Positions 2,846-51,146 of a stretch of DNA of 64,000 bases are shown piece after piece; within the stretch, counting starts at the first letter, position 1, and each line of letters opens with the position of its first letter. Made by a program: the position numbers and the translations under genes. A model generated the notes under the pieces. It ran no database searches. It worked only from the letters and a program-made list of their open reading frames with translations, and was not told where the DNA came from. Origin of the DNA: Burkholderiales bacterium (GTDB taxonomy: Bacteria; Pseudomonadota; Gammaproteobacteria; Burkholderiales; SG8-41); contig JAIETP010000020.1 of the NCBI GenBank assembly GCA_019744975.1, positions 83,307 through 147,306 of the forward strand, read 5' to 3'.

Positions 2846-2867
2846 ATCAATAAAAACAAATAGTTAT
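2846..2867 (+). repeat. Dispersed AT-rich IHF-like motif, copy 1 (ATCAATAAAAACAAATAGTTAT)
   Basis: 21/22 identical to copy at 19140; in spacer between convergent genes; one mismatch to WATCAANNNNTTR. Confidence 0.75.
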
Positions 2868-2873
2868 AGATAT

Positions 2874-3767
2874 TTAGCTCAATGCATCATTGAGAATTGC
2901 CTCGGTGTCGTAGCGGCTTTGCCAGCCCAGAGTGGTGGTCGTATGCCGGCAATCCAGAGTGAGTGTGTTGGCCAGCCCGTCCAGCCATGCCGGCTCGCCG
3001 CCCCAGCCCGTTACCCGCCACAGGGCGTGCAGTCCGGCGCGTGCCAGACGCGGTGGCAGGGGCAGCGCGAAGCGGTGGCGACGCTGGATGAATTCGCAAT
3101 AACTGAAACTGTCCCCGGCCGCGAGATTGAACGGCCCATGCACGTCATGCCTGATGGCCAACAGCACCGCGCGCGCCACGTCATCCTCGTGCACGCATTG
3201 TAATCGCGCGTATGGCCGCGGCAACGCCGGGTACACAGGCAGATTGAGCAATCGCAGCAACAATGGTTGGGCATTCCTGCCGAGAATCACATGCGGGCGC
3301 AGCCTCACACATCCGGGAATATCCGCTTCCAGCAGGCGTTCAAGCTCTGCCTTGTGCGCGCCATACCGAAAACCGTCCAACGGTGCGTATGGCATTTCCT
3401 CGGATACGTTTTCCCCTCTGCCATACACGGCGGCGCTCGATAAATGCACCAGCCGTTTTATGCCTGCATCGCATGCGGCCTGAAACAACCGGTAGCTGCC
3501 GCGGACGTTGATATCCGCCATCTCCGCCTCAGGCATGCGACCGCGCAGCACCACATAAGCAAGGTGTACGAGCGCATCATGTCCGGGAAGCATATCCGTC
3601 AGTCGCGGTTCGCGGATATCGCAGATTGTCGCCTTGAATTTTTCATGTGAAAAGTGCGGCGGCGCAATGTCCACGCCGGTGACGCGGCTGATGGAGTCTT
3701 CTGCGCACAACAACGGCAGCAATACCCGCGCCAGACGGGAGCTGGAACCGGTGACAAGCACGTTCAC
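2874..3767 (-). CDS. NAD-dependent epimerase/dehydratase (extended SDR)
   Basis: VLVTGSSSRLA (degenerate Rossmann motif), HLSSAAVYG, catalytic YGAHK; GTG at 3767 lies 4 bp after the LLM stop. Confidence 0.8.
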   Translation of the reverse strand: MNVLVTGSSSRLARVLLPLLCAEDSISRVTGVDIAPPHFSHEKFKATICDIREPRLTDMLPGHDALVHLAYVVLRGRMPEAEMADINVRGSYRLFQAACDAGIKRLVHLSSAAVYGRGENVSEEMPYAPLDGFRYGAHKAELERLLEADIPGCVRLRPHVILGRNAQPLLLRLLNLPVYPALPRPYARLQCVHEDDVARAVLLAIRHDVHGPFNLAAGDSFSYCEFIQRRHRFALPLPPRLARAGLHALWRVTGWGGEPAWLDGLANTLTLDCRHTTTTLGWQSRYDTEAILNDALS

Positions 3768-3771
3768 GGCG

Positions 3772-4830
3772 TCAACCGCGTGTCGCAAATGCCGGCATCA
3801 CCTCGTGCGCGAACAAGGCCTGCGATTCGCGCGTGACCGCAGGATCGACCGCACCGGCGCCAAAAGCGCACAGCAGATGGGTGACGCCGGCATCGGCGTA
3901 TTTGCGCAGTTTGGAACGTACTTCTTCGGGATTTCCCACCACGGTCATGCCAAAAGTATCGGCTAGGTTGAAATTCGCGCCAAGTTTCAGCAGCGCCCGA
4001 AAGCGCCCGATTTCATGCAGATGTTCGTATCCGGGATACAGTTTTTCGAGTACGGGCAGCACCACCTTGTAGAGTTCCTGGTAAAACCAGGTAAAAGCCT
4101 CCCTGGCGATGCGATGCGCGCGCCGGCTGTCAGCCAGACACAGGACGCCGATGGTCATGCCGGCACGCGGTGCATCGGCGCTGCGCCACGCCGCCTGGTA
4201 GCGTTCGATATCGTGTTTCACCATGAACCAGGGTTTGAACGGTCCGGCAAGCACGCCCAGTCCGCGCGTTGCGGCCCACTCGAAAGTCTGAGGGCTGACA
4301 GCCGCCGTCCACAGCGGCGGATGCGGGCGCTGCACCACCTGCGGCACGACATCGAGTGCCTCAATGTGATAATGCCGCCCGCGATGATTGACCGGATTGC
4401 GTGTGAAGCTCTGCATCAGGATATCCAGGCTCTCGTCGGTGATCTCGCGGCTTGCCGCCATATCGACGCCAAATACTGCGCACTCGCGCGGTGAGAATCC
4501 CCGGCCAATGCCGATTTCCAGGCGTCCGCCGGAAAGTGCGTCCAGAGTGGCGACACGCTCGGCGACATGCACGGGGTGATGCAGAGGCAGTGGAATGATC
4601 GCATGCCCCAGCCGGATGTTGCTGGTTCGTGCCGCCGCCGCGGCCAGCAACAATTCAGGTTTTGAGGCGTGCGAATACCCGCGCAGAAAGTGATGTTCAG
4701 TAAACCAGGCACAGCCATAACCCAGCTGATCAGCGAGTTCGATTTGCGCCAGCAATTCGGCGTAGAGCCCGGCTTCGGAAAGGGGGAGCCAGGGCGGCAT
4801 TGCCGCCTCGTAAAACAGATCGAATCTCAT
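3772..4830 (-). CDS. LLM-class (luciferase-like) flavin-dependent oxidoreductase
   Basis: MRFDLFYE start, WFTEHHF, RVATLDALSGGRLEIGIGRG, RPHPPLWTAA; start revised to ATG 4830. Confidence 0.9.
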   Translation of the reverse strand: MRFDLFYEAAMPPWLPLSEAGLYAELLAQIELADQLGYGCAWFTEHHFLRGYSHASKPELLLAAAAARTSNIRLGHAIIPLPLHHPVHVAERVATLDALSGGRLEIGIGRGFSPRECAVFGVDMAASREITDESLDILMQSFTRNPVNHRGRHYHIEALDVVPQVVQRPHPPLWTAAVSPQTFEWAATRGLGVLAGPFKPWFMVKHDIERYQAAWRSADAPRAGMTIGVLCLADSRRAHRIAREAFTWFYQELYKVVLPVLEKLYPGYEHLHEIGRFRALLKLGANFNLADTFGMTVVGNPEEVRSKLRKYADAGVTHLLCAFGAGAVDPAVTRESQALFAHEVMPAFATRG

Positions 4831-4883
4831 GAGTTGCAGTGGTGATGGCGGTGGCAGTGGTGGTGAAAATGGAATGGCTTCAT
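4827..4883 (-). CDS. Putative 18-aa His/Cys-rich leader peptide MKPFHFHHHCHRHHHCNS
   Basis: Read manually; ATG 4883-4881, TGA 4829-4827 overlapping the LLM ATG (ATGA); weak GGA RBS 8 nt upstream; below the ORF-track size cutoff. Confidence 0.5.
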   Translation of the reverse strand: MKPFHFHHHCHRHHHCNS

Positions 4884-4910
4884 GATGCCAGTCCATGACC
4901 GCCTGATCCA

Positions 4911-4986
4911 GCGCTGACTACTTTCCCAAAAACATGACGGCTTCGCCAGAGGCATGTTTTGTCATTATTCATGAAACTTTCAATAA
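4911..4986 (-). repeat. Structured intergenic repeat, copy B (76 bp)
   Basis: Minus strand matches 37627-37704 at 57 of 66 core columns; starts immediately after the receiver-gene stop. Confidence 0.85.
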
Positions 4987-5421
4987 CTACACCGGCGGCG
5001 GCACGCCGAGCAGTGCGCGTACCTTGTCCATCAATTCACGCGTGGAAAAAGGCTTGGTCAGGTAGGCGTCGGCACCCAGCGCCATGCCGCGGGCGATCTC
5101 GGCTTCGCGGCCGCGGGCGGTGACCAGCATGATGCGGGTGCCACGCAATGCTGGATTTTCTCTGATCAGCCGGCATAACTCGAAACCATCAATCAGCGGC
5201 AACATTACGTCCAGGAGTGCCAGGTCGGGCGGCCGGGCCTGCAGCGCGCGCAGCGCCGCAGCGCCATCGCGGGCTGTGGTCACTGCGTAACCTTCCTTGG
5301 CGAGCAGGAATTCCAGCGACAGCAGGATGCTTTCCTCATCCTCGACGATCAGCACGCTGGTGACAGGGGCGCTTTTGGGTAAACCGTTTTTGGGTAAATC
5401 GTCTTTGGGTAAATTATTCAT
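4987..5421 (-). CDS. Stand-alone response regulator (receiver domain only)
   Basis: VLIVEDE, LLDVMLP (phospho-Asp), VTARG, YLTKPF; ATG 5421 overlaps the kinase TGA (ATGA). Confidence 0.9.
   Translation of the reverse strand: MNNLPKDDLPKNGLPKSAPVTSVLIVEDEESILLSLEFLLAKEGYAVTTARDGAAALRALQARPPDLALLDVMLPLIDGFELCRLIRENPALRGTRIMLVTARGREAEIARGMALGADAYLTKPFSTRELMDKVRALLGVPPPV
5374..5413. repeat. Three direct repeats of TTTGGGTAAA with 15-bp period (encode LPKxx x3)
   Basis: Units at 5374, 5389 and 5404 read directly from the sequence. Confidence 0.8.
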
Positions 5422-8168
5422 GCGGCGAGGAAACTGGTGCTGCTGCGTGGCAACGGCAGGGTGAAGGAGAACTTTGCGCCCAGGCCAGACGTGCTTTCCA
5501 CCCACAGCCGGCCGCCGAAGTGATGAATGATTTCGCGCGAAATCGCAAGGCCGAGGCCGCTGCCGCGCGGTTTTCCGGCCGCGGTGTCACTGACCTGGCG
5601 GAATTTTTCGAAAATGACCGCCTGGTCGGCGGGGCTGATGCCGATACCGTTGTCGGCAATGTCGATGCGCAGCGCCGCCTCCTCTTCCGACAGCGTAATG
5701 CTGACGCGGCTGTCGGGTTTGTCGCAGAAGTTGGCCGCGTTGGACAGCAGGTTCAGCGCGACCTGGGTGATGCGGTCGCGGTCGGCCATGACCAGGGGCG
5801 GGTGTTCCGGGATCCGCAGTTCGAGCGCAATGTTCCGTTCCTTGTAGATCTGGCTGAGCGCGGCAACCGCGTCTTCCAATACTTCGCGCATGTCGACTTC
5901 GCTGGGATGCCAGTCGGCGGCGCCGGACTCGATCTTGGCCAGATCCAGCACCTGGTTGATCAGTCTTGTCAGGCGTTCGGATTCGCGGGTGATGATGCCG
6001 AGGAATTTGCTGCGTTGTTGCGGATCAAGCTGGGGGTTGTCACTGAGAATTTCTGAGAACGCGCGGATCGAGGTCAGCGGTGTGCGCAGCTCGTGGGTCA
6101 CCGTCGAGATGAAATCGTCCTTCAGCCGGTCGAGTTCCTGCAGCCGCTGGTTGGCGCCGCGCAGTTCATTGGTGGCGGCTTCGAGTTCGCGTGATTTCTG
6201 TTCCAGCTGCCGGCTGTAGGCGAGCGCCTGCGAGGCCTCGTCGATGATGGCCATCACCTCATCAAGCGCCAGCGGTTCCTCGACCACGACCGAGGCCACC
6301 ATGTCGCGGGCGGATGCGCTGCCGATGGCACCGGCGATCTGCGACTCGACATAGTGCACCAGCACGGCATTGGCGGAGACCTGCTCGATGCCGGGGATAC
6401 CCTGGCTGCGGGCGTAGGCGGCGAAGGCTTCGTTGGCGCGTTCCGGGCCGATAAAGCGACCGAGCAGCGTCTGCAGGTCGGCGACGGTGGCGCTGCCGCG
6501 CCAGAAGCGTGAGCCGCTGCCGGGGGTGATATGACGGAACACGTCGACAAACAGGTTGGCCTGGCTGTGTTCGGCGGCCGTGGGCCGGCGCCACAGGGAG
6601 AAATCGACGTAACAGCCGACATTGGCAATCATGCTCCAGAACAGGCAATGACTGATGTCATCAAGGCCTTCGAGCCCGAACAGTTGCTGCGGTTTGAGCA
6701 AGTCAAAACCCAGGATGCCTTCAGTGAGGAAGGTAATCGGCAGCCAGCCCGATTTGGCGAAGGAGGGCAGCAGCAGCGAATACAGCCAGACCAGGAAACC
6801 CGCGCTGAGTCCGCAAAGGGCGCCCAGCCGGGTGCCGCCTTTCCAGAACAGGCCGCCGATCATTGCCGGTGCGAACTGGGCGACGGCGGTGAATGAAATC
6901 AGGCCGATCGACACCAGTGCGTAGGCTTCTCCGGCAAGGTAGAAGTAACCGTAGCCCAGCACCAGCACCAGGACAATCGCGCTGCGGCGGATGCCCAGAA
7001 GCAGGCCGGAGAGATCGCGACTTTCGGTCAGCCGCAGGAATTTCCAACGGAGCAGGATCGGCATCACCAGGTCGTTGCAGACCATGGTCGACAGCGCGAT
7101 GGTTTCGACGATGACCATGCCGGTCGCCGCCGACAGGCCGCCGACAAAGGCCAGCAGTGCCAGCCAGGTTTTCTGCTCCGACATCGGCAGCGTCAGCACA
7201 AAGGTATCGGCATCAACGGTGCCGGCCGGGAAGTGCATCAGTCCGCCGAGCGCGATCGGCAGCACAAAAATATTGATCGCGAACAGGTACAGCGGAAACA
7301 GCCAGATCGCCTTGTTCAGGTGGCGCTCGTTGACGTTTTCGACGACAGAAACCTGGAATTGGCGTGGCAGCAGGATGATCGCCAGCATCGACAGCACTGT
7401 CAGCGACGCCCATGTTGTGTAGTTGCCGGCGGCGCCGCCCTGGACCAGCAATGCGTTCAATTCGGGTACTGCCGCGGCCTTGGCGAACACGTCGGCAAAA
7501 CCGTCGAACATGCCCCAGGTCACGAACACGCCAACGGCGATGAAGGCGACCAGTTTGACGATGGATTCAAAAGCAATGACGGCGACCAGGCCTTCGTGGC
7601 GCTCAGTGGCATCGAGGTGCCGGGTGCCGAACAGAATGGTGAACGCCGCCAGCAACATCGCAATGTAAAAGGTGTTGTCCTGGAGGAAAGGCAGCGAGGC
7701 GGTGGAGGCAATGACGTTCGGGTACTGCAGCATGGTCGAAAAACTGGCCGAGATCGCTTTCAGCTGCAAGGCGATGTAGGGCACGATGCCCAGTACGGCA
7801 ATGATGGTGACCAGACCGCCCAGCAGATGGCTTTTGCCGTATCGCGAGGCGATGAAGTCGGCAATGGAGGTGATACGGTGTGCCTTGCTGATGCGGATCA
7901 TTTTCAGCAGCACGTACCACCATAACGCGGCCATCAGCGTTGGTCCGAGGTAGATCGGTAGAAAGCCGATGCCGCTGGTCGCCGCGCGGCCGACGCTGCC
8001 GTAGAAGGTCCAGGACGTGCAATACACCGCCAGCGACAGCGTGTAGATGTACGGATTGGCGATGATGCTGCGCCCGGCATCGGCACGTTTGTCGCCGTAA
8101 TAGGCGATGGCGAACAGCAGGCCGACGTAAGCGAAGGACAGAACAACGATCAGCGCACCGGAAAGCAT
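5418..8168 (-). CDS. CrbS/CbrA-like sensor kinase: SLC5 (Na+/solute symporter) domain + STAC + HisKA + HATPase
   Basis: About 500-aa multi-TM N-terminus (YTLSLAVYCTSWTFYGSVG), STAC-like IAGAIGSASAR, H-box VTHELRTPLTSI, G boxes DNGIG and GSGLGL. Confidence 0.9.
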   Translation of the reverse strand: MLSGALIVVLSFAYVGLLFAIAYYGDKRADAGRSIIANPYIYTLSLAVYCTSWTFYGSVGRAATSGIGFLPIYLGPTLMAALWWYVLLKMIRISKAHRITSIADFIASRYGKSHLLGGLVTIIAVLGIVPYIALQLKAISASFSTMLQYPNVIASTASLPFLQDNTFYIAMLLAAFTILFGTRHLDATERHEGLVAVIAFESIVKLVAFIAVGVFVTWGMFDGFADVFAKAAAVPELNALLVQGGAAGNYTTWASLTVLSMLAIILLPRQFQVSVVENVNERHLNKAIWLFPLYLFAINIFVLPIALGGLMHFPAGTVDADTFVLTLPMSEQKTWLALLAFVGGLSAATGMVIVETIALSTMVCNDLVMPILLRWKFLRLTESRDLSGLLLGIRRSAIVLVLVLGYGYFYLAGEAYALVSIGLISFTAVAQFAPAMIGGLFWKGGTRLGALCGLSAGFLVWLYSLLLPSFAKSGWLPITFLTEGILGFDLLKPQQLFGLEGLDDISHCLFWSMIANVGCYVDFSLWRRPTAAEHSQANLFVDVFRHITPGSGSRFWRGSATVADLQTLLGRFIGPERANEAFAAYARSQGIPGIEQVSANAVLVHYVESQIAGAIGSASARDMVASVVVEEPLALDEVMAIIDEASQALAYSRQLEQKSRELEAATNELRGANQRLQELDRLKDDFISTVTHELRTPLTSIRAFSEILSDNPQLDPQQRSKFLGIITRESERLTRLINQVLDLAKIESGAADWHPSEVDMREVLEDAVAALSQIYKERNIALELRIPEHPPLVMADRDRITQVALNLLSNAANFCDKPDSRVSITLSEEEAALRIDIADNGIGISPADQAVIFEKFRQVSDTAAGKPRGSGLGLAISREIIHHFGGRLWVESTSGLGAKFSFTLPLPRSSTSFLAA

Positions 8169-8172
8169 GATC

Positions 8173-8373
8173 CTAACGATCCTTGCGTTCGATGATCAGG
8201 GCCATCAAGGCGATGATGGCCATCCACGCGGCAAACACGTAGATATAAATCAGCGGTATTCCCCAGATGCGTGTGTTGCCGGTAAACAGTGCCAGCAGCG
8301 GAAAGTTGAACAGCAGGCAGCCGAGCAGGAACAACGCCACCAGGCGTTGTCCTTTGAGGGTGGGGCCGGTCAC
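8173..8373 (-). CDS. Small two-TM membrane protein of the kind found before SLC5 kinases/transporters
   Basis: 66 aa, two hydrophobic stretches, IWGIPLIYIYVFAAW motif; 4 bp upstream of the kinase. Confidence 0.8.
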   Translation of the reverse strand: MTGPTLKGQRLVALFLLGCLLFNFPLLALFTGNTRIWGIPLIYIYVFAAWMAIIALMALIIERKDR

Positions 8374-8412
8374 GATGTGTCAGTGCGGGCGGCGGTCGTC
8401 CGTACGGGCGGC

Positions 8413-10398
8413 TTATTTCGGGGTTTGTTTGAGCTGGTCAAGGATCGCCGGATTTTCCAGTGTCGACACATCCTGCACGATGTCCTCGCCCTTGGCGATC
8501 GAGCGCAGCAGCCGGCGCATGATTTTGCCGGAGCGGGTCTTCGGCAGGTTGTCGCCGAAGCGGATGTCCCGGGGTTTGGCGATGGGGCCGATTTCCTTGC
8601 CCACCCAGTCCTGCAGTTCCTTGATGATTTTTTTTGCGGCATCCCCTTCAGGGCGCGCCTGTTTCAGCACAACAAAGGCGACCACGGCCTCGCCGGTAAG
8701 CTCATCGGGGCGGCCGACCACGGCCGCTTCGGCAACCAGCGCGCTATTGGCGACCAGCGCCGATTCGATTTCCATGGTGCCGAGACGGTGGCCGGAGACG
8801 TTCAATACGTCATCGATACGACCCATGATGCGGATGTAGCCGTCCTCATCATAGGTTGCACCGTCTCCAGCCAGATAGTACTTGCCCTGGAAATCCTCCG
8901 GGAAATAGGTTTTTTTGAAACGCTCCGGGTCGCCCCAGATCGTGCGCAGCATTGACGGCCAGGGTTTTTTGATGACCAGGATGCCGCCTTTGCCCTTGCC
9001 CACGGAATGTCCGGTTTCATCGACGATGTCGGCAATGATGCCGGGCAGCGGCAGGGTGGCTGAACCCGGTTTGGTCGGTGTTGCGCCGGGCAGCGGGGTG
9101 ATCATGTGGCCCCCCGTTTCAGTCTGCCACCAGGTATCGACAATGGGGCAGCGGGTGCCGCCGACGGTTTCGTGATACCACATCCAGGCTTCGGGATTGA
9201 TCGGCTCGCCGACGGTGCCGAGGATGCGCAGGCTCGTCAGATCGTATTTTTTCGGCAGGTCGCCGCCGGCCTTGATCAGTGAACGAATCGCGGTCGGTGC
9301 GGTGTAGAACACCGTGACTTTGTGATCCTGGATCATTTTCCAGAACCGTCCGGCATCCGGCCAGGTCGGCACCCCTTCAAAAACGACTTCGGTGCCGCCG
9401 CAGGCCAGCGGACCGTAACAGACATAGGAATGGCCTGTGACCCAGCCCACATCAGCGGTGCACCAGAATACGTCGGTCGGTTTGTGGTCAAAGGTCCACT
9501 TCATCGTCAGGATGGTCCACAGCAGGTATCCGCCGGTGGAATGCTGGATGCCCTTGGGTTTGCCGGTGGAACCGGAGGTGTAGAGAATGAACAGCGGATG
9601 TTCAGCGTCGACCCATTCCGGTTCGCAGGCATCCGGCTGGCCTTTGACCAGGTCATGCAGCCAGACATCGATTTTTGCGTTCCAGTTGACCTTGCCGCCG
9701 GTGCGTTGGTAGACCACGACCGACTTGATTGATTCGCAGCCGCCGAGGGCGATGCCGTCATCAACCGCAGTCTTCAGCGCAATCGCCTTGCCGCCGCGCA
9801 TCTGTTCGTCGGCGGTCAGTACGGCCACAGCGCCGGCGTCGATGATGCGTTCCTGCAGGCTTTTTGCCGAAAAGCCGCCGAACACCACCGAGTGTATGGC
9901 GCCGATGCGCGCGCAGGCCTGCATGGCGACAATCGCTTCGATCGACATCGGCATGTAGATGATGACGCGATCGCCTTTTTTGATGCCGCGTGACTTGAGG
10001 CCGTTGGCCAGCATGCAGGTCCGGCGGTGGAGGTCGTGGTAGCTGGCCCTGGTGATTTTGCCGTCATCGGCCTCGAAAATGACCGCGGTTTTGTCGGGCT
10101 GCGTCTGCAGATGCCGGTCGAGGCAGTTGTACGACGCGTTCAACGTGCCGTCGGCGAACCAGCGGAAAAACGGCGCCTTGGAACCGTCGAAGGTCTGGGT
10201 GAACGGTTTTTTCCAAAGCAGGTGTTTGCGTGCCAGATCGGCCCAGAAGCCGGTGTAGTCCTTTTCGGCGGCGGCGCACATCGCGCGGTAGGCGTCCATG
10301 CCGGAAATGTTCGCCTGAGCGACCAGTTTTGCATCCGGCGGAAACACGCGGGTTTCATGCAGGACTGATTCAATGGTTCCGGATGCTGGGGTGGACAT
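8413..10398 (-). CDS. acs: Acetyl-CoA synthetase
   Basis: [34 protein letters not shown] (acetylatable Lys); GGAGG RBS. Confidence 0.97.
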
Positions 10399-10740: not shown

Positions 10741-10751
10741 ACCCCAATTCC

Positions 10752-12539: not shown

Positions 12540-12866
12540 ATGATGAAAGGTCAGCTCGCGGGATTGATGAAACAGGCGCAGCAGATGCAGGACAACATGC
12601 GCAAGATGCAGGAGCAGCTCGCACTGATCGAGGTTGAGGGGCAGGCGGGGTCGGGTGCGGTCAAGGTGGTCATGACCTGCAAACATGAGGTCAAGCGCGT
12701 CGCCATCGACCCGTCGGTCATCGGCGATGACAAGGACATGCTTGAGGACCTGATCGCGTTGGCCATGAATGACGCCGTGCGCAAGGTCGAAGCCACCAGC
12801 CAGGAAAAAATGGCCGGAGTGACCGCCGGGCTGCCCTTGCCGCCGGGCATGAAGCTGCCATTTTGA
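12540..12866 (+). CDS. ybaB: YbaB/EbfC nucleoid-associated protein
   Basis: MKQAQQMQ...[11 protein letters not shown]...[12 protein letters not shown]; located between dnaX and recR. Confidence 0.93.
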
Positions 12867-12881
12867 TTTGTTAAATTATAT

Positions 12882-12900
12882 AATAAAATCAAATACTTAT
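12882..12900 (+). repeat. Dispersed AT-rich IHF-like motif, copy 2 (AATAAAATCAAATACTTAT)
   Basis: Exact WATCAANNNNTTR match; 19/19 identical to copy at 51128. Confidence 0.78.
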
Positions 12901-12914
12901 ATTAAACTCCTATT

Positions 12915-13517
12915 GTGAATTCACCGCCATCGCTGCAAGCCCTGATTGATGCGCTGCGCTGCCTGCCCGGTGTCGGGCCGCGTTCGGCGCAGCGCATGGC
13001 CTTCCACCTGATGCAGCGTGACAGGCAGGGTGCTGAGCGTCTGGCCGTAACCATGGGCGCGGCGCTGCAGCGGGTGCGCCATTGCGAACGCTGCAACAAT
13101 TTTTCCGAGGAACCGGTGTGCCAGTTGTGCCTGTCGCCGCGGCGCAACAGCCGGTTGTTATGCGTCGTCGAAACACCGGGCGACCTGCTGATGATGGAGC
13201 AGGCGCAGTGCCATGACGGACTGTATTTTGTGCTGATGGGCGCCTTGTCGCCGCTGGACGGCATCGGGCCGAAAGACATCCACCTCGAACGCCTGTTGCA
13301 GCGCGCCGCCGATGGCGTGGTGCAGGAAGTGGTGCTGGCCACCAATTTTACGGTGGAGGGCGAGGCCACTGCGCACTATGCCGGCGAACTGCTGCGTGCC
13401 AAAGGTGTCAAGGTCACGCGTATCGCGCGCGGTCTTCCGGTCGGCGGCGAACTCGAGCATGTCGACAGCGGCACGCTGGCGCAGGCGGTGCAGGAACGAC
13501 GCGACGTGCTGGGTTAG
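12915..13517 (+). CDS. recR: Recombination mediator RecR
   Basis: [13 protein letters not shown] HhH, C4 zinc finger, Toprim EVVLATN. Confidence 0.96.
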
Positions 13518-18303: not shown

Positions 18304-19132
18304 GTAATTCCGGGAATGCGCGTTCGACGCGTGCCCGGTTATGCCCGACTTCAAGCACCAGCCAGCCCTGCGGCGTGAGATGCGCCGCTGCTTCCGCCAG
18401 GATGCGGCGCACGAGATCCAGGCCATCAGTGCCGCCGTGCAGCGCCAGCGCCGGCTCCTTGCGATATTCCGCAGGCAATGTCCGCATCACCGGCTCGCGT
18501 ACGTAAGGTGGATTGCTCAGGATCAGGTCGTAACGTCTGCCGGCGAGGCTGGTGAACAGGTCGGAGCGGATCAGTTGCAGGCGCTGCGTCAGCCGGTGTT
18601 CGCGCACATTGCGCCGTGCTACGGCAAGCGCCGGACTGGAGATGTCGACGCCATCGACCTGTGCACGCGGGAAGGTATGCGCGGCAACGATGGCAAGGCA
18701 GCCAGAGCCGGTGCACAAATCCAGGATTGTTTGCGGCGACTGACGTGGTTTCAGCCACGGTTGCAAACGCGACTGCAGCAGTTCGGCGATGTACGAGCGC
18801 GGCACGATGACACGTTCATCGACATAGAAGCGGTATTCGCCGAGCCAGGCTTCGTGCGTCAGGTAGGCGGCGGGAATACGTTCGCTGATGCGGCGCGCGA
18901 ACAGCTGTTGCGCGCGTCGCGCGATGTTTGCGGGCAGAGGCTGGTCGAGTCGTGCGGCGAGGTCTTCAAACGGACAACCCAGCGCATGCACCATCAGCCA
19001 GGCGGCTTCATCATCAGCGTTGAGCGTGCCGTGGCCGTAGGCGAGGCGGGCGCTGCGAAAATGTCTGGCGGCTTCGGCGATCAGTTGCCGCGGGGTGTTT
19101 GGCGGTGCGGTGGGTGTTGACGCGCGGGACAC
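18164..19132 (-). CDS. prmB: 50S ribosomal protein L3 N5-glutamine methyltransferase
   Basis: YGHGTLNADDEAAWL, FYVDERVIVPRSYIAE, LDLCTGSGC, NPPY. Confidence 0.93.
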   Translation of the reverse strand: MSRASTPTAPPNTPRQLIAEAARHFRSARLAYGHGTLNADDEAAWLMVHALGCPFEDLAARLDQPLPANIARRAQQLFARRISERIPAAYLTHEAWLGEYRFYVDERVIVPRSYIAELLQSRLQPWLKPRQSPQTILDLCTGSGCLAIVAAHTFPRAQVDGVDISSPALAVARRNVREHRLTQRLQLIRSDLFTSLAGRRYDLILSNPPYVREPVMRTLPAEYRKEPALALHGGTDGLDLVRRILAEAAAHLTPQGWLVLEVGHNRARVERAFPELPMIWAETSGGDDCVLLLQRAALAALPSAPAPKPRPAVVRRRRTPAQ

Positions 19133-19139
19133 TTAAAAT

Positions 19140-19161
19140 ATCAATAAAAACAAATACTTAT
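19140..19161 (+). repeat. Dispersed AT-rich IHF-like motif, copy 3 (ATCAATAAAAACAAATACTTAT)
   Basis: 21/22 identical to copy 1; in the pilU-prmB spacer. Confidence 0.78.
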
Positions 19162-19198
19162 GTGCAATTCAGGCGTTTTGCTTATTCAGCCTGCTTAT

Positions 19199-20365
19199 TC
19201 AGCCCAACGCATCAAGGTTGAGTTTGATGCTCGACAGGTCATCGTTGATGCCGCTGGTGGTCCGGCCGTTTTCACCGGGCGGCGGGGTGTTCGCCGCGCT
19301 TCCGCCCTTGGGCGCGTTACTGATCAGATTGTGCAGATTGCTCGGCGAGTCGGCGTTGGCCAGCGCCTCTTCCATGGTGATGCGACCGGCCCGGTAATGT
19401 TCGAACAAGGCCTGCTCGAAGGTTTTTGATCCCGGCGACAGGCTTTGCTCCATCGCGTCCTTGATCTGGTTGATCTCGCCGGACTTGATCAGTTCCTGGA
19501 TGTGTTTGGTATTGAGCATGACCTCGACCGCGGCAACACGTTTGCCGTCGACGGATTTGACCAGGCGCTGCGAGATCACGCAGCGCAGCGCGATCGACAG
19601 GTCGGCCTGCAGGCTCTCGCGCGCTTCGCGCGGGAAAAAACCGATGATGCGGTTCAGCGCGTTGTAACTGTTGTTGGCATGCAGCGTGGACATGCACAGA
19701 TGTCCCGTCTGTGCGAACAGCAGCGAGCTCTGCAGCGTTTCGCGGTCGCGGATTTCGCCGACCATCAGCAGGTCGGGGGCCTCGCGCATCGCGCTGATCA
19801 GCGCATTTTCGTAGGTATGGGTGTCGACTCGGACTTCACGCTGGTTGACGATGGATTTTTTGTGTTTGAAGATGAATTCCACCGGATCTTCGATGGTCAG
19901 GATGTGGCCGGTCTTGATGGTGTTGCGGTAATCGATCATCGAGGCCATGGTGGTCGATTTGCCTGAACCGGTGGAACCGACAATCAGGATCAGCCCCAGC
20001 TTTTCCATGATCACTTCTTTCAGCACATCCGGCAGGCCCAGGGAGTCGAAGGCCGGCACATCAGGCTTGACGAAACGGATCACCATCGCCACGGTGTTTT
20101 TCTGTTGGAAAATGTTGATGCGGAAATTGCCGAGTTCGCCGCCGCTCTGGGCGAAATTCATTTCGTGCCTGGTCTCGAATTCCTTGATCTGTGGCTCGGT
20201 CATCAGCTCGTAACTGATCTTTTTGACCTGCTCGGGATCCAGCGGCTGGTTGTTGATCGGCATCACGGTGCCGTTGATCTTGATCTGGATCGGGGCGCCG
20301 GAGGTGAAAAACATGTCCGACGCCTGCTTGTCGGCCATCAATTTGAACAGTGGTGTGACGAACAT
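19199..20365 (-). CDS. pilU: PilT/PilU-family type IV pilus retraction ATPase (PilU-like)
   Basis: GSTGSGKST, TIEDPVE, GEIRD, TGHLCMSTLHANN. Confidence 0.8.
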   Translation of the reverse strand: MFVTPLFKLMADKQASDMFFTSGAPIQIKINGTVMPINNQPLDPEQVKKISYELMTEPQIKEFETRHEMNFAQSGGELGNFRINIFQQKNTVAMVIRFVKPDVPAFDSLGLPDVLKEVIMEKLGLILIVGSTGSGKSTTMASMIDYRNTIKTGHILTIEDPVEFIFKHKKSIVNQREVRVDTHTYENALISAMREAPDLLMVGEIRDRETLQSSLLFAQTGHLCMSTLHANNSYNALNRIIGFFPREARESLQADLSIALRCVISQRLVKSVDGKRVAAVEVMLNTKHIQELIKSGEINQIKDAMEQSLSPGSKTFEQALFEHYRAGRITMEEALANADSPSNLHNLISNAPKGGSAANTPPPGENGRTTSGINDDLSSIKLNLDALG

Positions 20366-26622: not shown

Positions 26623-29765
<3,143 letters not shown>

Positions 29766-38632: not shown

Positions 38633-38659
38633 AGATTTAAGCGGCTATATTTAAATACC

Positions 38660-38677
38660 TTTAAAAACAATAACTTG
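38660..38677 (+). repeat. Dispersed AT-rich IHF-like motif, copy 5, degenerate (TTTAAAAACAATAACTTG)
   Basis: AAACAA-TAAC-TTG, one mismatch to IHF consensus; in the tsf-pyrH spacer. Confidence 0.55.
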
Positions 38678-38686
38678 GGTATATAC

Positions 38687-41589: not shown

Positions 41590-41608
41590 AGACATGCCGT
41601 TTTAAATC

Positions 41609-42811: not shown

Positions 42812-42829
42812 AAAGAGGATGAGGGGAAA

Positions 42830-44194: not shown

Positions 44195-44199
44195 TAAAT

Positions 44200-46467: not shown

Positions 46468-46529
46468 TGAGCCTGGCGTGCAGGGATGAACCCGCTTGCC
46501 GCGCCGCATGGAGATTCAAGGAGAGCAAG

Positions 46530-47033
46530 TTGAAAATATTGTTTGGGGTATTGGCGATGATGGCCGTGGCATGTGGCAGCGCCTCAAGCCTTGCGGCCGA
46601 TTTGAAAATCGGATTTATCGATGCTGAACGCATCAACAAGGAAAGTGTTCCGGCGGAGCGGGCCAGCAAACAGCTGGAAAAGGAATTCGCGCCGCGGGCG
46701 CAGGAATTGCAGCGGCGGGAAGCGCAGATCAAGACGCTGCAGGGGCAGCTGGAAAAGGATGCCCTGACCCTGGGCGAAGCCGAGCGGCGCACCAAGGAGC
46801 AGGAACTGGGGCGACTGACGCTGGATTTTCAGCGCATGCAGCGTGAATACCGCGAAGATCTGAATCTGCGTCGCAACCAGGAATTGGGCGCCCTGTTCGA
46901 GCGGGCCAACCGTGTCATCCGGCAGATAGCAGAGGCGGAAAAGTACGACATCATTTTCCAGGAAGCGGTGTATCGCAATCCCAAGATCGATATCACCGAA
47001 AAGGTGCTGAAGGCACTGGCCGAAGGCAAATAG
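46530..47033 (+). CDS. skp: OmpH/Skp periplasmic chaperone
   Basis: TTG start after AAGGAG, signal peptide, KIGFID, DITEKVLKAL. Confidence 0.92.
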   Translation: MKILFGVLAMMAVACGSASSLAADLKIGFIDAERINKESVPAERASKQLEKEFAPRAQELQRREAQIKTLQGQLEKDALTLGEAERRTKEQELGRLTLDFQRMQREYREDLNLRRNQELGALFERANRVIRQIAEAEKYDIIFQEAVYRNPKIDITEKVLKALAEGK

Positions 47034-47088
47034 CGGTGTGCGGCATGGCTCCGCGGTGCCGTTATCCAGACACTCTTTTGAGCGCCCG

Positions 47089-48141
47089 ATGGAGAATCAA
47101 CTGCCACCGTCACTGAGCCTGGGGGAGATTGTCGGCCGCCTGGGTGGTGAATTGATCGGCGACGCCAGCGTCAAAGTCAGACAAGTGGCGACGCTGGAAA
47201 AAGCGGCGCCGGACACCATCGCCTTTCTTGCCAATGAGCGTTATCTCGGGCAATTGAAAACCACCCGCGCCGGCGCGGTCATTGTCGGGGCCAAGTTGTC
47301 CGAACCACTGGACATGCCGCGCATCGTGGCAGTTAATCCCTATGCCTACTTTGCCCGCGTGTCGGCATTGTTCAATCCGGTGCCGGCAAACGTGGCGGGA
47401 ATCCATCCTGCTGCGGTTGTGCATCCACAGGCGATTTTGGGGGCGGGCGTGTATATCGGTCCCGGCGCAGTGATCGAGGCGGGGGTGACCCTAGGCAAGA
47501 ACTGCAGTATCGGCGCCGGTACCTGCCTCGGTGCCGGCGTCGAAGTCGGTGAAGGCGGCATGCTCTACCCGAATGTCACGGTTTATCATGGTTGCAAGCT
47601 GGGCAAACGGGTCATTATTCATGCCGGGGCCGTCATCGGTGCAGACGGATTCGGTATCGCAATGGACGATGGGCGCTGGCTCAAGGTGCCGCAGATCGGA
47701 CGTGTTGTGATCGGCGACGATGTTGAAATCGGCGCCAATACCACCATCGACCGGGGTGCCATAGACGACACGGTCATCGAGGACGGCGTAAAACTCGACA
47801 ACCAGATCCAGGTCGGGCACAACGTGCGCATCGGTGCACATACCGCCATTGCCGCCTGCGTCGGCATCGCCGGCAGCTCGCGCATCGGGCGTCTGTGCCG
47901 GATCGGTGGTGCATCCGGTATTGCCGGCCATCTGACGATCACTGATAACGTCGAAATTTCCGCGCATACGCTGGTGACAAAATCCATCACCGAAGCGGGA
48001 ACCTATACCGGCGCCTACCCCTTCGAAAACAACCGTGACTGGCGCCGCAACGCGGCCAGCCTGCGCAATCTCGGCGAGCTGACAACAAGGGTTCGCGCAA
48101 TGGAGCAGGAACTAAAGCAGGGTAAAAAAGGAAAATCATGA
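47089..48141 (+). CDS. lpxD: UDP-3-O-acylglucosamine N-acyltransferase
   Basis: Hexapeptide repeats, [24 protein letters not shown]; start revised to 47089. Confidence 0.96.
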
Positions 48142-48596
48142 ACAGCATGGACATCAATGAAGTCCTGCGTTATCTGCCGCATCGTTATCCGTTCCTGCTG
48201 ATCGACAGGGTGCTGTCGTACGAGCCGGGGGAAAACCTGGTGGCGTTGAAAAACGTCACCATTAACGAGCCCTTTTTCAACGGGCATTTTCCGCACCATC
48301 CGGTGATGCCCGGTGTGCTGATCATCGAGGCGATGGCGCAGGCGGCGGCGATTTTGTCGTTCGTTACCATGGGCGCCAAGGCGAATGACCAGTCGATCTA
48401 TTATTTTGTCGGTATCGACAACGCGCGCTTCAAGCGGCCGGTCACTGCCGGGGATGCGCTCCATCTGCATGTCACGCTGACGCGGCATGTGCGCGGCATC
48501 TGGAAATTTGCCGCCGAGGCCCGTGTCGGCGACACGGTGGCGGCCGAGGCCGAGTTGATGTGCACCGTGCGCGACCTGCCGGGCGACGCGGCCTGA
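48138..48596 (+). CDS. fabZ: 3-hydroxyacyl-ACP dehydratase
   Basis: [31 protein letters not shown]. Confidence 0.97.
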
Positions 48597-48604
48597 GGCT
48601 TGCC

Positions 48605-49384
48605 GTGGCTGCGTTCGTTCATTCCACCGCTATTGTCGATCCCGGGGCGCAGCTCGCTGCCGATGTCACGGTCGGTCCGTATTCGATCATCGGGGCCGAT
48701 GTCGAAATCGGCGCCGGTACCCGCATCGGCCCTCATGTCGTGATCGGTGAACATACCCGTATCGGCGCCCGCAACAGGATTTTCCAGTTCTGCTCCATCG
48801 GTGAGGAGCCGCAGGACAAAAAATACGCCGGCGAGCCGACGCGGCTGGAAATCGGCGACGACAACACCATCCGTGAGTTCTGCACCCTGAACCGCGGCAC
48901 CGCCCAGGATGCGGGTGTCACCCGGGTCGGCAACCACAACTGGATCATGGCCTATGTGCATCTTGCCCATGACTGCCAGATCGGCAACCAGACGATTTTT
49001 GCCAATAACGCGCAGCTTGCCGGGCATGTCTATGTCGGTGATCACGCGATCCTTGGCGGATTCACGGTGGTGCACCAGTTCTGCCGCATCGGCGCCCACA
49101 GCATTACCGCGATGGGCACGATCCTGTTGCAGGACCTGCCGCCGTATGTGATGGCCTCGGGCAATACCGCCGAACCGCATGGCATCAATGCCGAGGGCCT
49201 CAAGCGCCGCGGATACGCCGCGGACGCCATATCCGCGATCAAACGCGCGTACAAGGCACTGTATAAATCCGGGCTGTCCTTTGATGCGGCCGTCGCACAG
49301 ATTACGGCCGAGGCCGCAACACAACCGGCATTGCAGCCGCTGGCCGCGTTCCTGGCGACGCCGGGCCGCGGCATCATCCGCTGA
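48605..49384 (+). CDS. lpxA: UDP-N-acetylglucosamine O-acyltransferase
   Basis: PQDKKY, REFCTLNRGT, HLAHDC; GTG start at 48605. Confidence 0.96.
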   Translation: MAAFVHSTAIVDPGAQLAADVTVGPYSIIGADVEIGAGTRIGPHVVIGEHTRIGARNRIFQFCSIGEEPQDKKYAGEPTRLEIGDDNTIREFCTLNRGTAQDAGVTRVGNHNWIMAYVHLAHDCQIGNQTIFANNAQLAGHVYVGDHAILGGFTVVHQFCRIGAHSITAMGTILLQDLPPYVMASGNTAEPHGINAEGLKRRGYAADAISAIKRAYKALYKSGLSFDAAVAQITAEAATQPALQPLAAFLATPGRGIIR

Positions 49385-49389
49385 ATCCC

Positions 49390-50562
49390 GTGCCGCCAGA
49401 GAAAAAACCGGCAGGTCCGCTGGTCGGTATTGTTGCGGGTGAACCTTCGGGTGACCTGCTGGGCGGGGCATTGGTGCAGGCTCTGCGCAAACACATGCCG
49501 GGAGCGCGGTTTGTCGGCATCTGTGGTCCGCAGATGATGGCCGCCGGCGTGAAATCGCTGTTTCCGCTGGAAAAACTCTCGGTACGCGGTTATGTCGAAG
49601 TGCTGCGGCATTACCGTGAAATCATCGGCATCCGGCGCGAGCTGAAAAAATATTTTCTGAGCGAGCGTCCGGCGGTGTTCATCGGCATCGATGCGCCGGA
49701 TTTTAATCTCGACCTTGAAGCCGATCTGAAGGCTGCCGGAATTCCGGCGATCCATTACGTCAGTCCGTCGATCTGGGCCTGGCGCGGCGGACGCATCCGC
49801 AAAATCCGCAAAGCCGTGTCGCGGATGCTGACGGTGTTTCCCTTCGAGCCGGAAATCTACGAAAAAGCGGGGATACCCGTGAGTTATGTCGGGCATCCGC
49901 TGGCCGACATGCTGGCCGGAGCGCCGTCGCGCACCGAGGCGCGCGCGGGACTGCGCATCCCCGTGTCGGCGCCGGTGGTCGCGCTGCTGCCCGGCAGCCG
50001 TGTCAGCGAACTCGAAAATCTCGCCGATGTGTATGTGGCTGCCGCGGAAAAAATTGCCGCGGAAATTGACGGCGTGCGCCTGCTGGTGCCGCTGGTCAAC
50101 CGTGAGACGCGGGAACTGTTCGAGGCGGCGCTGTATCGCCGGCAAAGCGGCGAACTGGAAATCAAGCTGCTGTTCGGCCATGCCCATGAGGCGATGGCGG
50201 CAGCAGACGTGGTGCTGGTGGCCTCGGGTACGGCGACGCTGGAGGCAGCGCTGCTGCAGCGGGCGATGGTGATCACCTATCGCATGCCGCGGCTGAGCTG
50301 GTGGATCATGAACAGCCGGCGTTACCAGCCCTGGGTGGGATTGCCCAATATTCTTGCCGGCGAATTCGTGGTGCCGGAACTGCTGCAGGATGCCGCGACA
50401 GCGGAGGCCTTGTCGGCGGCGGTCATCGACCTGCTGCGCGACAAGGACAAACGCAAAGCCATTGAGGCGCGTTTTGCGCAAATGGCAGTTGAGCTGCGCC
50501 ATGACGCCGCTGAACGCGCGGCCGAGGCGATATTGCCTTATCTCAATGGCAGCGCAACTTGA
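49390..50562 (+). CDS. lpxB: Lipid-A-disaccharide synthase
   Basis: [40 protein letters not shown]. Confidence 0.96.
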
Positions 50563-51125
50563 GCGTGGTGATCTGTGGCGTCGATGAAGCAGGGCGCGGA
50601 CCGCTGGCCGGCCCGGTATTTGCCGCCGCGGTGATCCTCGACGATCCGCCACTGATCAAAGGTCTGGCGGACTCCAAAAAACTCACGGCCAAACGCCGCG
50701 ATGCGCTGTTTGAGGAAATTAAATCGCATGCCGTCGCCTGGGCCGTGGCCAGCGCCAGCGTCGAGGAAATCGATGCCATCAACATCCTGCAGGCGAGCCT
50801 CTTGGCGATGCGCCGCGCGGTGCTGGCGCTGACGCCGCAGCCTGCATCTATCCTGGTGGATGGTCTCTACGTGCCCAAAGTTGCGATGCCGGCGCGTGCC
50901 ATCGTGCAGGGGGATGCCACGGTGCCGGCGATTTCGGCGGCGTCGATACTGGCCAAGGTGGCGCGTGATGCGCTGATGCTGGAATTACATGCCGCCTATC
51001 CTGATTACGGCTTTGACCGGCACAAGGGATACGGTACTGCGGTGCATATGGCGGCGCTGCGTCGCCTGGGGCCGACGCCGGCCCATAGACGCAGTTTTGC
51101 CCCGGTGCGGGCGCTCATAAAATAA
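50559..51125 (+). CDS. rnhB: Ribonuclease HII
   Basis: [38 protein letters not shown]. Confidence 0.97.
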
Positions 51126-51127
51126 TT

Positions 51128-51146
51128 AATAAAATCAAATACTTAT
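51128..51146 (+). repeat. Dispersed AT-rich IHF-like motif, copy 6 (AATAAAATCAAATACTTAT)
   Basis: 19/19 identical to copy 2; in the convergent rnhB/senB spacer. Confidence 0.78.

What the first reader, a model, noticed from the sequence alone, without database searches (positions are those of the whole stretch)
2846..51146. Dispersed AT-rich 18-22 bp motif with IHF consensus, six copies about 10 kb apart
Seen: ATCAATAAAAWCAAWTASTTR-like sequences at 2846, 12882, 19140, 28403 (minus), 38660 and 51128. Copies 2 and 6 are 19/19 identical; copies 1 and 3 are 21/22 identical. Gaps are about 10.0, 6.3, 9.3, 10.3 and 12.5 kb. They fill otherwise tight spacers (aurF/SDR, ybaB/recR, pilU/prmB, tsf/pyrH, rnhB/senB) in a GC-rich sequence. 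Established: the 3' half fits the IHF consensus WATCAANNNNTTR (three exact, three with one mismatch). Inference: similarity extends beyond what IHF needs, and the regular spacing suggests a chromosome-organisation or domain-boundary site array rather than promoter-specific sites.
Basis: partly seen in the sequence, partly recalled or inferred. Interest (0 to 1): 0.72.

Follow-up and report, generated by a model that had tools for sequence, protein, structure and literature searches.

The report
Evenly spaced IHF-type DNA-bending sites
The six AT-rich boxes are real and belong to about 480 conserved, unusually evenly spaced copies of a 38-base sequence built like a full binding site for the DNA-bending protein IHF, so they more likely help fold the chromosome than switch individual genes.

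Summary
All six copies are at the stated places, with none expected by chance.

What the motif is:
- It is a 38-bp asymmetric block, wtAAAAAwATCAATAAAAWCAAATACTTATrwwwwtt.
- The genome holds 482 copies in 3.69 Mb, with strands split 241:241.
- It has the layout of a strong IHF site: an A-tract on the left, then WATCAA-N4-TTR. The conserved block is centred on WATCAA and is about as long as the stretch IHF wraps.

How it is placed:
- Orientation is random with respect to genes, GC skew and neighbouring sites. That excludes a promoter, a leader or a Chi-like signal.
- Spacing is far more even than chance: CV 0.60 against 0.95-1.0. Gaps of 0.5-2 kb and gaps over 20 kb are both strongly depleted.
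- Even spacing recurs in a second species (CV 0.53) and in a different family (CV 0.58).

Conservation:
- Within the genus, 36 of 37 sites sit at orthologous positions.
- One site (window copy 4) is written into ligA through changed amino acids.
- Between families most positions differ.
- The array exists in only three genera out of 146 sampled.
- These genomes encode IhfA and IhfB. All but one of the eight motif-bearing genomes typed lack HU, though one motif-free relative lacks HU too.

Binding by IHF and a folding or supercoil-domain role are inferred, not shown. An uptake-signal role is not excluded.

The parts
2838..2875 (+). Site 1 (core 2846-2867, ATCAATAAAAACAAATAGTTAT). It fills the convergent spacer between ORF 1990-2841 (+) and an SDR/epimerase-like gene 2874-3788 (-).
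   Evidence: (55.0 bits).
12871..12908 (+). Site 2 (core 12879-12900). It lies between ybaB/ebfC (12540-12866) and recR (12915-13517). The IHF core AATCAAATACTTA is exact.
   Evidence: (54.8 bits). The same spacer holds a site in the same orientation in 8 of 9 same-genus loci, and in none of about 70 outgroup loci.
19132..19169 (+). Site 3 (core 19140-19161), a perfect match to the 22-mer consensus. It lies between ORF 18341-19120 (+) and a PilT/PilU-family ATPase gene 19199-20365 (-).
   Evidence: (53.3 bits).
28395..28432 (-). Site 4 (core 28403-28424). It lies inside ligA (27681-29765, +) and encodes [10 protein letters not shown] in A/T-ending codons. The IHF core AATCAATTACTTG is exact.
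   Evidence: (39.0 bits). Seven of eight same-genus ligA orthologues keep the site (24-36.5 bits; the eighth scores 9.9). Genera g18, g19, g20, g8 and an outgroup have other residues, GC-rich codons and no site.
38649..38686 (+). Site 5 (core 38657-38678, ACCTTTAAAAACAATAACTTGG), a diverged copy between tsf (ending 38632) and pyrH (starting 38675 or 38688).
   Evidence: (38.5 bits).
51117..51154 (+). Site 6 (core 51125-51146). It fills the convergent spacer between rnhB (50559-51125) and a gene on the minus strand (ORF 51156-52310; 51156-52133 by my gene caller). The IHF core is exact.
   Evidence: (57.8 bits).

Best explanation
The six boxes belong to a genus-wide array of about 480 stand-alone, full-length, high-affinity IHF-type sites.

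Proposed binding (inferred): each site is a 38-bp asymmetric block. A left-arm A-tract and a right-half WATCAA-N4-TTR would let the genome's own IhfA/IhfB heterodimer wrap the DNA into a U-turn.

What is shown: the sites are held at fixed positions by selection. They are indifferent to the direction of transcription and replication, and they are spaced much more evenly than chance (about every 7.5 kb here).

Proposed function (inferred): the sites act as architecture, not as gene-specific switches. Protein-fixed sharp bends would pin plectoneme tips or delimit supercoil domains. Because they sit mostly just past stop codons, they may also help handle transcription-generated supercoils at gene ends. 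This could matter more in genomes that lack HU.
For: Motif anatomy:
- The conserved block runs from -8 to +29 relative to the core start, with no conserved flank beyond it.
- A5 lies at -6..-2 and WATCAA at 8-13. The block's centre (10.5) coincides with WATCAA.
- The literature places WATCAR between the two IHF kinks, which are 9 bp apart. TTR lies in the flank, and an upstream A-tract marks the strongest sites (10.1101/382655; PMC9519438).
- Exact WATCAANNNNTTR occurs 282 times against 26 expected. Its flanks carry the extended motif.

Reader protein:
- The genome encodes IhfA-like and IhfB-like proteins with the GRNPKTG/GRNPKSG arm motifs.

Not a promoter, leader or replication signal:
- Orientation is random against flanking genes, 136:127 in co-directional spacers.
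- It is random against GC skew, 127:122 and 98:101.
- It is random against the neighbouring site, 212:227.
- Strands are 241:241.

Even spacing:
- CV is 0.605 against 0.95-1.00. Gaps of 0.5-2 kb number 14 against 78 expected, and gaps over 20 kb number 6 against 29 expected.
- The pattern recurs in G007 (CV 0.53) and in family f8 genome G091 (CV 0.58).

Selection:
- 36 of 37 mappable G007 sites are orthologous to a G000 site. All 36 have the same orientation, although aligned DNA is only 78% identical.
- The ybaB-recR site is kept in 8 of 9 congeners.
- The ligA site was created by amino-acid changes and is kept in 7 of the 8 same-genus orthologues recovered.

Plausibility of the mechanism:
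- Simulations show IHF pins plectoneme position and can split DNA into topological domains (PMC9519438).
- IHF has been proposed to affect gyrase at the 3' ends of transcription units (PMC7826290).
- Sites here lie a median 15 bp from the upstream stop against 57 bp from the next start.
Against: - No binding data exist. Every functional step is inferred.
- Two genera of the same family (G078, G274) have no array at all, although their IhfA and IhfB are 87-96% identical to this genome's. IHF alone therefore does not explain why the array exists.
- Positions that canonical IHF reads only indirectly are conserved both within this genus and in the family f8 dialect: TCAAT at 1-5 and ATA at 14-16. 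This could mean an altered preference or a second factor.
- About half the sites have AAACAA instead of AATCAA.
- The HU-loss correlation is imperfect. G078 lacks both HU and the array, and G091 has both.
- Even spacing, strand symmetry, lineage dialects and sites written into genes are also hallmarks of DNA-uptake sequences.
Confidence: 0.5

Rival explanations
1. A new DNA-uptake (self-recognition) sequence. The competence machinery would prefer DNA carrying the motif. The motif would then have accumulated, evenly spaced, by biased uptake plus recombination, as USS does in Pasteurellaceae and DUS in Neisseriaceae.
For: - The motif is hyper-abundant and strand-symmetric at 241:241.
- It is evenly spaced. 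PMC7811141 describes an even USS distribution as the expected result of molecular drive.
- It is lineage-restricted, with a dialect in another family.
- Positions turn over between families while spacing stays even.
- It is written into coding sequence.
- ComEC and a PilT/U ATPase are present.
- The largest gaps tend to have below-average GC.
Against: - Density is 1 per 7.5 kb here and 1 per 3.7 kb in G091. Known uptake sequences occur about once per kb.
- The block is 38 bp long and reproduces the whole IHF site layout (A-tract, WATCAA, TTR, footprint length). On this reading that match would be coincidence.
- ComEC is present in nearly all relatives, with or without the motif. No lineage-specific receptor is known.
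Confidence: 0.12
2. Sites for a lineage-specific DNA-binding protein other than IHF, or for IHF acting with a partner. This protein would be present only in the three array-bearing genera and would read the extended consensus.
For: - The array is found in only 3 of 146 genera sampled.
- Motif-free sister genera have nearly identical IHF.
- Non-canonical positions (TCAAT, ATA) are conserved across both dialects.
Against: - No candidate protein was identified.
- The match to IHF architecture and footprint length is close.
- The motif is not a palindrome or a direct-repeat pair, which is the form most dimeric regulators bind.
Confidence: 0.15
3. Inert relics of an old mobile element (a MITE/REP/RIP-like repeat) that carried an IHF site.
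For: IHF sites occur inside known small mobile repeats, such as the RIB/RIP form of BIME and the Correia elements (own knowledge; reviews listed).
Against: - No terminal inverted repeats, palindromes or conserved flanks lie beyond the 38 bp.
- 36 of 37 positions are conserved at 78% DNA identity, which argues for purifying selection.
- Even spacing is not expected from random insertion.
- The ligA site arose by point substitutions in place, not by insertion.
Confidence: 0.03
4. A promoter or UP element, or an AU-rich translation leader, for the gene downstream.
For: - The 3' end often reads CTTATAAT, which resembles a -10 box.
- Some copies sit immediately before start codons that lack a Shine-Dalgarno sequence, such as recR.
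Against: - Orientation relative to genes is random, 136:127.
- 67 copies lie between convergent genes.
- There is no fixed distance to start codons.
- No -35-like element lies at the right spacing.
Confidence: 0.02

Closest known systems
Canonical full-length IHF sites (phage lambda attP H' type: upstream A-tract plus WATCAR-N4-TTR)
   Same: - Both are asymmetric and AT-rich.
- An A-tract lies left of the core. From my memory of the H' sequence, 14 bp separate the A-tract start from the W of the core in both.
- The core sits at the centre of a block of about 35-38 bp.
   Different: - Here there are about 480 near-identical stand-alone copies per genome, evenly spaced and conserved across species.
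- They are not tied to recombination, replication or sigma-54 promoters.
- Extra base-level conservation is seen in the left-centre (TCAAT) and in the N4 spacer (ATAC).
E. coli RIB/RIP elements (BIME-1: REP - IHF site - REP; Boccard & Prentki 1993, Oppenheim et al. 1993; own knowledge)
   Same: - Both are dispersed extragenic IHF sites that lie mostly just after gene ends.
- Copy number is on the order of 10^2 per genome.
- Both have a proposed link to gyrase and supercoil handling at the 3' ends of transcription units.
   Different: - No flanking REP palindromes.
- No sign of mobility.
- Even spacing is shown here. I know of no such report for RIP elements.
DNA uptake sequences (USS of Pasteurellaceae, DUS of Neisseriaceae)
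   Same: - Both are strand-symmetric, hyper-abundant and relatively evenly distributed.
- Both are lineage-specific with dialects.
- Both are tolerated in coding sequence through amino-acid change.
   Different: - This motif is 4-8 times sparser and much longer.
- It is almost purely A/T.
- It reproduces the IHF site architecture.
- No uptake bias has been shown.
HIP1 of cyanobacteria (PMC5861425)
   Same: A genome-wide, selected, hyper-abundant short motif with non-random distribution and no settled function.
   Different: HIP1 is an 8-bp GC-rich palindrome that is far denser and lies mostly inside genes.

Membership tests
IHF binding site (full-length, H'-type) | Core WATCAR-N4-TTR | tested here: met
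   Core positions 8-20: 205 of 482 sites are exact and 252 have one mismatch. The genome holds 282 exact cores against 26 expected. In the window, 3 are exact and 3 have one mismatch.
IHF binding site (full-length, H'-type) | A/T-tract on the side upstream of the core | tested here: met
   A is the majority base at -6..-2, in 97-149 of 164 seed sites (126-149 at -6..-3). The requirement is described in PMC9519438.
IHF binding site (full-length, H'-type) | Conserved block about as long as the wrapped DNA (about 35 bp or more) and centred on the core between the two kinks | tested here: met
   Information content is above background from -8 to +29, with its centre at 10.5. WATCAA occupies 8-13.
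IHF binding site (full-length, H'-type) | The host encodes an IhfA/IhfB heterodimer with intercalating-proline arms | tested here: met
   C43:6936-7244 is IhfA-like and C12:3-287 is IhfB-like. Both carry the GRNPK(T/S)G arm.
IHF binding site (full-length, H'-type) | Specific high-affinity binding and a bend of about 160 degrees by IHF | not testable with these tools
   Needs EMSA, footprinting, AFM or ChIP.
RIB/RIP (BIME-1) | IHF site flanked by inverted REP palindromes | tested here: not met
   No conservation outside -10..+29.
MITE/REP-type mobile repeat | Terminal inverted repeats or a hairpin, with variable presence between relatives | tested here: not met
   The motif is asymmetric with no inverted repeats. 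36 of 37 positions are shared with a species whose aligned DNA is 78% identical.
DNA uptake sequence (USS/DUS) | Strand-symmetric, over-represented, relatively evenly distributed, lineage-specific | tested here: met
.
DNA uptake sequence (USS/DUS) | Density about 1 per kb | tested here: not met
   1 per 7.5 kb in G000, 1 per 9.3 kb in G007 and 1 per 3.7 kb in G091.
DNA uptake sequence (USS/DUS) | Preferential uptake of motif-bearing DNA by competent cells | not testable with these tools
   The lineage is uncultured. ComEC is present but is nearly universal in the order.
Sigma-70 promoter / UP element | Fixed orientation and distance relative to the downstream gene | tested here: not met
   Orientation is 136:127, 67 sites lie in convergent spacers, and distances are broad.
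Replication-oriented signals (Chi, KOPS) | Strand bias that follows the replichore (GC skew) | tested here: not met
   127:122 and 98:101.

The most novel reading that the evidence does not exclude
A few genera of uncultured freshwater Burkholiales-type betaproteobacteria (order Burkholderiales) carry a sequence-encoded chromosome-folding lattice.

- Over-specified IHF 'super-sites' are placed by selection every 4-9 kb, even inside essential genes.
- Each site would fix a protein-induced U-turn that pins a plectoneme tip or closes a supercoil domain.
- The loop size of the nucleoid would then be written in the DNA.
- This may compensate for the loss of HU.
Probability: 0.3. Interest if true: 0.85.

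Novelty: new variant of a known kind. Interest (0 to 1): 0.66.

Why it matters
- Topological domains of about 10 kb are generally thought to have variable, sequence-independent boundaries (own knowledge). Here a genome carries a conserved, evenly spaced set of strong bending sites on the same length scale. This would make it directly testable whether DNA sequence can program nucleoid loop structure.
- Selection on these sites is strong enough to rewrite ligA, an essential enzyme.
- The system offers a natural case of a lineage that appears to run on IHF without HU.
- If the sites turn out to be uptake signals instead, they would be the first such system outside Pasteurellaceae and Neisseriaceae.

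Tried and rejected
- **Promoter or UP element, or translation leader.** Rejected on orientation and distance statistics.
- **Chi/KOPS-like replication-oriented signal.** Rejected because there is no GC-skew bias.
- **Paired or alternating orientation of neighbouring sites.** None found, 212:227.
- **Mobile repeat.** Rejected on positional conservation, lack of flanks and in-place origin.
- **HU loss as the cause.** Seven of eight array-bearing genomes typed lack HU. But G078 lacks both HU and the array, and G091 has both. This is a suggestive but imperfect correlation resting on very few independent events.
- **H-NS loss.** H-NS is absent in array genomes, but also in the motif-free sister genera and in 7 of 13 outgroups, so it is not specific.
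- **ComEC as a discriminator for an uptake role.** It is present almost everywhere.
- **First gene caller.** My first GC3-based caller mis-stranded genes. I replaced it with a codon log-likelihood caller. All context statistics rest on these home-made calls.
- **Whole-proteome phylogenetic profiling for a lineage-specific reader protein.** Not feasible, because only the window's own genome can be downloaded whole.
- **Literature searches.** These found no published description of an evenly spaced IHF-site array.
Full report
**1. Observation**

All six sequences are at the stated coordinates. The 22-mer ATCAATAAAAWCAAATACTTAT matches five of them at up to 3 mismatches. None of 100 dinucleotide shuffles of the window gave a match. 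The sixth (core 38657-38678) is a diverged copy that a genome-derived weight matrix scores at 38.5 bits. No other place in the window reaches even 12 bits.

Flanking genes were checked against NCBIfam:
- ybaB/ebfC and recR flank copy 2.
- tsf and pyrH flank copy 5.
- rnhB precedes copy 6.
- A PilT/PilU-family ATPase follows copy 3.
- An SDR/epimerase-like gene follows copy 1.
- Copy 4 is not in a spacer. It lies inside ligA.

**2. A genome-wide family**

The window is C5:83307-147306 of a 3.69-Mb, 60.5% GC assembly. The 22-mer occurs 38 times exactly and 230 times at up to 3 mismatches.

Aligned copies are conserved from -8 to +29 relative to the core start, giving wtAAAAAwATCAATAAAAWCAAATACTTATrwwwwtt. 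Beyond that the sequence is ordinary GC-rich DNA, with no inverted repeats or conserved flanks.

An iterated 38-bp matrix finds 491 hits at 20 bits or more, against 0-4 in a locally shuffled genome. After merging double-strand duplicates there are 482 sites, with strands 241:241.

**3. What it is not**

I built a codon-likelihood gene caller that gave 3380 genes. A first GC3-based attempt mis-stranded genes and was dropped.

Orientation of the motif relative to genes is random:
- In co-directional spacers it is on the genes' strand 136 times and on the other strand 127 times.
- 67 sites lie between convergent genes and 58 between divergent genes.

There is no bias with local GC skew (127:122 and 98:101). 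There is none between consecutive sites either (212 same, 227 opposite).

This excludes a promoter, a leader, a terminator with polarity, and Chi/KOPS-like signals.

On placement:
- Sites sit closer to the upstream stop codon (median 15 bp) than to the next start (57 bp), in both orientations. They nearly fill convergent spacers.
- They are about 1.5 times more frequent per junction in convergent and divergent spacers than in co-directional ones. A quarter of co-directional cases lie in tight, probably operon-internal junctions.

**4. Even spacing**

The 439 within-contig gaps have mean 7.46 kb, median 6.47 kb and CV 0.605.
- Random placement in real spacers gives CV 0.95 +/- 0.045. The observed value is more than 7 standard deviations lower.
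- Uniform placement gives 1.00 +/- 0.04.
- Both tails are depleted. Gaps of 0.5-2 kb number 14 against 78 expected, and gaps over 20 kb number 6 against 29 expected.
- CV falls as weaker sites are added, from 0.82 at 50 bits or more to 0.59 at 15 bits or more. This is the behaviour expected if all sites belong to one regular pattern.

The pattern recurs elsewhere:
- In 400 kb of another species of the genus (G007): 43 sites, CV 0.53.
- In 400 kb of a genome from a different family (G091): 106 sites, 1 per 3.7 kb, CV 0.58, strands 54:52.

The typical distance is 6-7 kb rather than 10 kb.

**5. Conservation and distribution**

All 24 other species of the genus have the motif.

In a sample of 301 genomes from 60 families and 146 genera of the order, an array exists only in three genera:
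- This genus (g1).
- One other genus of the same family (g19), with 920-990 loose-pattern hits in 4.5-5.3 Mb.
- One genus of another family (g8).

Two further genera of the same family (G078, G274) have essentially none.

Record titles show that the lineage is known only from metagenome-assembled genomes of uncultured Burkholderiales/Betaproteobacteria.

Within the genus, positions are almost frozen:
- 36 of 37 mappable G007 sites have a G000 site at the orthologous place. All 36 are in the same orientation, although aligned DNA is only 78% identical.
- The ybaB-recR site is present in 8 of 9 same-genus loci and in none of about 70 outgroup loci.

Between families, only 7 of 24 syntenic spacers share a site. 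About 3-4 would be expected by chance. Positions therefore turn over on long time scales while even spacing persists.

The f8 dialect (aAAAAAATTcAATATAATCAAaTAgTTAc) differs from this genus's consensus at only about four positions. It keeps the A-tract, TCAAT, AATCAA and TTA.

**6. Sites written into genes**

About 60 sites lie well inside long, high-scoring genes.

Window copy 4 is the clearest case:
- In seven of the eight same-genus ligA orthologues recovered, the DNA keeps the motif (24-36.5 bits; the eighth scores 9.9). The peptide is (S/N)Q(V/I/L)ID(F/Y)(I/F)xK, encoded by A/T-ending codons.
- Genera g18, g19, g20, g8 and an outgroup have different residues there (for example TQVLDRLVDLGF), GC-rich codons and no site.

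The site was therefore made in place by substitutions that changed an essential enzyme's sequence. This argues for selection at the DNA level and against insertion of a mobile element.

In passing: eleven genes start with the motif itself. Most begin MNK(I/N)K(Y/W)L..., and most are followed by a signal-peptide-like hydrophobic stretch.

**7. Why IHF**

- Core positions 8-20 read AAWCAAATACTTA, which fits WATCAANNNNTTR. The match is exact in 205 sites and one base off in 252, mostly AAACAA.
- Exact cores occur 282 times against 26 expected. Anchoring on the core alone recovers the whole extended motif.
- The literature states three things. WATCAR lies between the two proline kinks, which are 9 bp apart. 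TTR lies in the flank. The strongest sites add an A-tract on the upstream side, which increases affinity, bending and the length of DNA wrapped (bioRxiv 10.1101/382655, PMC9519438).
- Here the A-tract sits at -6..-2. The conserved block (-8..+29) is centred at 10.5, exactly on WATCAA (8-13), and is as long as the IHF wrap.
- From my memory of the lambda H' sequence, the distance from the A-tract start to the core is 14 bp in both. I could not verify this in the library.
- The genome encodes IhfA-like and IhfB-like proteins with the conserved arm motif.

**8. Nucleoid-protein census**

Six-frame searches with PF00216 find only two DNABII genes in this genome and in near-complete congeners. Other families of the order have 3-5. 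Typing by tblastn gives the following:
- G000, G003, G023 (g1), G204, G308 (g19) and G031, G137 (g8) have IhfA and IhfB and no HU.
- G091 (g8) has an extra HU-like gene.
- Motif-free G274 has HU.
- Motif-free G078 has none.

Loss of HU therefore accompanies the array in 7 of the 8 array genomes typed, but it is neither necessary nor sufficient. The number of independent evolutionary events behind the pattern is small.

H-NS (PF00816) is absent from all f1 and f8 genomes, and also from 7 of 13 outgroups, so it is not informative.

IHF of the motif-free sister genera is 87-96% identical to this genome's. A changed IHF is therefore unlikely to explain why only some genera have the array.

**9. 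Mechanism**

Shown:
- A selected, orientation-free, evenly spaced, position-conserved array of sequences with full IHF-site architecture.

Inferred:
- IHF binds each site and makes a U-turn.
- The bends act architecturally.

Molecular-dynamics work reports that IHF sits at plectoneme apices, pins their position and can separate topological domains (PMC9519438). Work on Dickeya proposes IHF as a 'domainin' that organises supercoils, including an effect on gyrase at the 3' ends of transcription units (PMC7826290). Sites every 4-9 kb, placed mostly just past stop codons, fit such a role. I put about 0.7 on IHF binding and about 0.5 on the whole statement.

**10. Rivals**

- **Uptake signal.** This reading shares many features: strand symmetry, even spacing (PMC7811141), dialects, turnover and coding-region copies. 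ComEC and pilus ATPases are present. Against it, density is 4-8 times lower than known systems, and the complete IHF-site layout would have to be coincidence. ComEC does not discriminate between genomes with and without the motif.
- **Lineage-specific second factor.** This is suggested by the patchy distribution and by conservation of non-canonical positions. No candidate protein was found.
- **Mobile relic, or promoter/leader.** Both are contradicted by the data above.

**11. Novelty**

IHF sites, and dispersed repeats that contain them (RIB/RIP, Correia elements), are known. A stand-alone, near-identical, evenly spaced and deeply conserved genome-wide array was not found in the literature searches.

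Earlier notes of this scan, on other windows of this genome and on related genomes, reached similar readings. I treated them as leads only. I had obtained the spacing, orientation, orthology, ligA and HU results before reading the notes on related genomes, though the same-genome IHF notes had been seen. Only the H-NS check was prompted by the notes, and it showed that H-NS loss is not specific to the array.

Noticed in passing
Genome contigs C43:6936-7244 and C12:3-287 (outside the window): The genome encodes only two DNABII proteins, IhfA-like and IhfB-like, and no HU. The same holds for 7 of the 8 array-bearing genomes typed. One motif-free relative (G078) also lacks HU.
   Followed up: yes
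window 12901-12917; loci L008-L012 around 2990-3001: The recR GTG start follows the motif by 14 bp with no Shine-Dalgarno sequence. In several congeners the GTG abuts the motif directly (…CTTATAGTGAA). recR translation must therefore start from an AU-rich, SD-less leader made of the site itself, or from a different start.
   Followed up: partly
Genome, e.g. C1:13068(-), C2:207370(+), C3:144786(-), C10:9809(-), C20:9061(+): Eleven genes begin with the motif itself (ATGAATAAAATCAAATACTTA…). Most begin MNK(I/N)K(Y/W)L and are followed by a signal-peptide-like hydrophobic stretch. Several look like periplasmic binding proteins.
   Followed up: partly
Genome C2:214529-263335: The longest site-free stretch is two adjacent gaps of 17 and 32 kb with GC of 0.55-0.585. 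It holds a 1489-aa YD/RHS-repeat protein and a GspE-like ATPase, and looks like an accessory island. Eight of the 11 largest gaps have below-average GC.
   Followed up: partly
G091:C61:8345-8614 (locus L107): This is the one array-bearing genome with an HU-like gene (52% identical to E. coli HupA). It could be genuine or bin contamination (1% estimated).
   Followed up: no
window 1990-2841 (+) and 18341-19120 (+): Two ORFs next to sites 1 and 3 match no NCBIfam model at E <= 1e-5. My codon-likelihood caller did not call 18341-19120 at all.
   Followed up: no
G204 and G308 (genus g19), whole genomes: A sister genus carries about 920-990 loose-pattern matches in 4.5-5.3 Mb, which is denser than here. 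It lacks the ligA site, so its array was laid out at least partly independently.
   Followed up: partly
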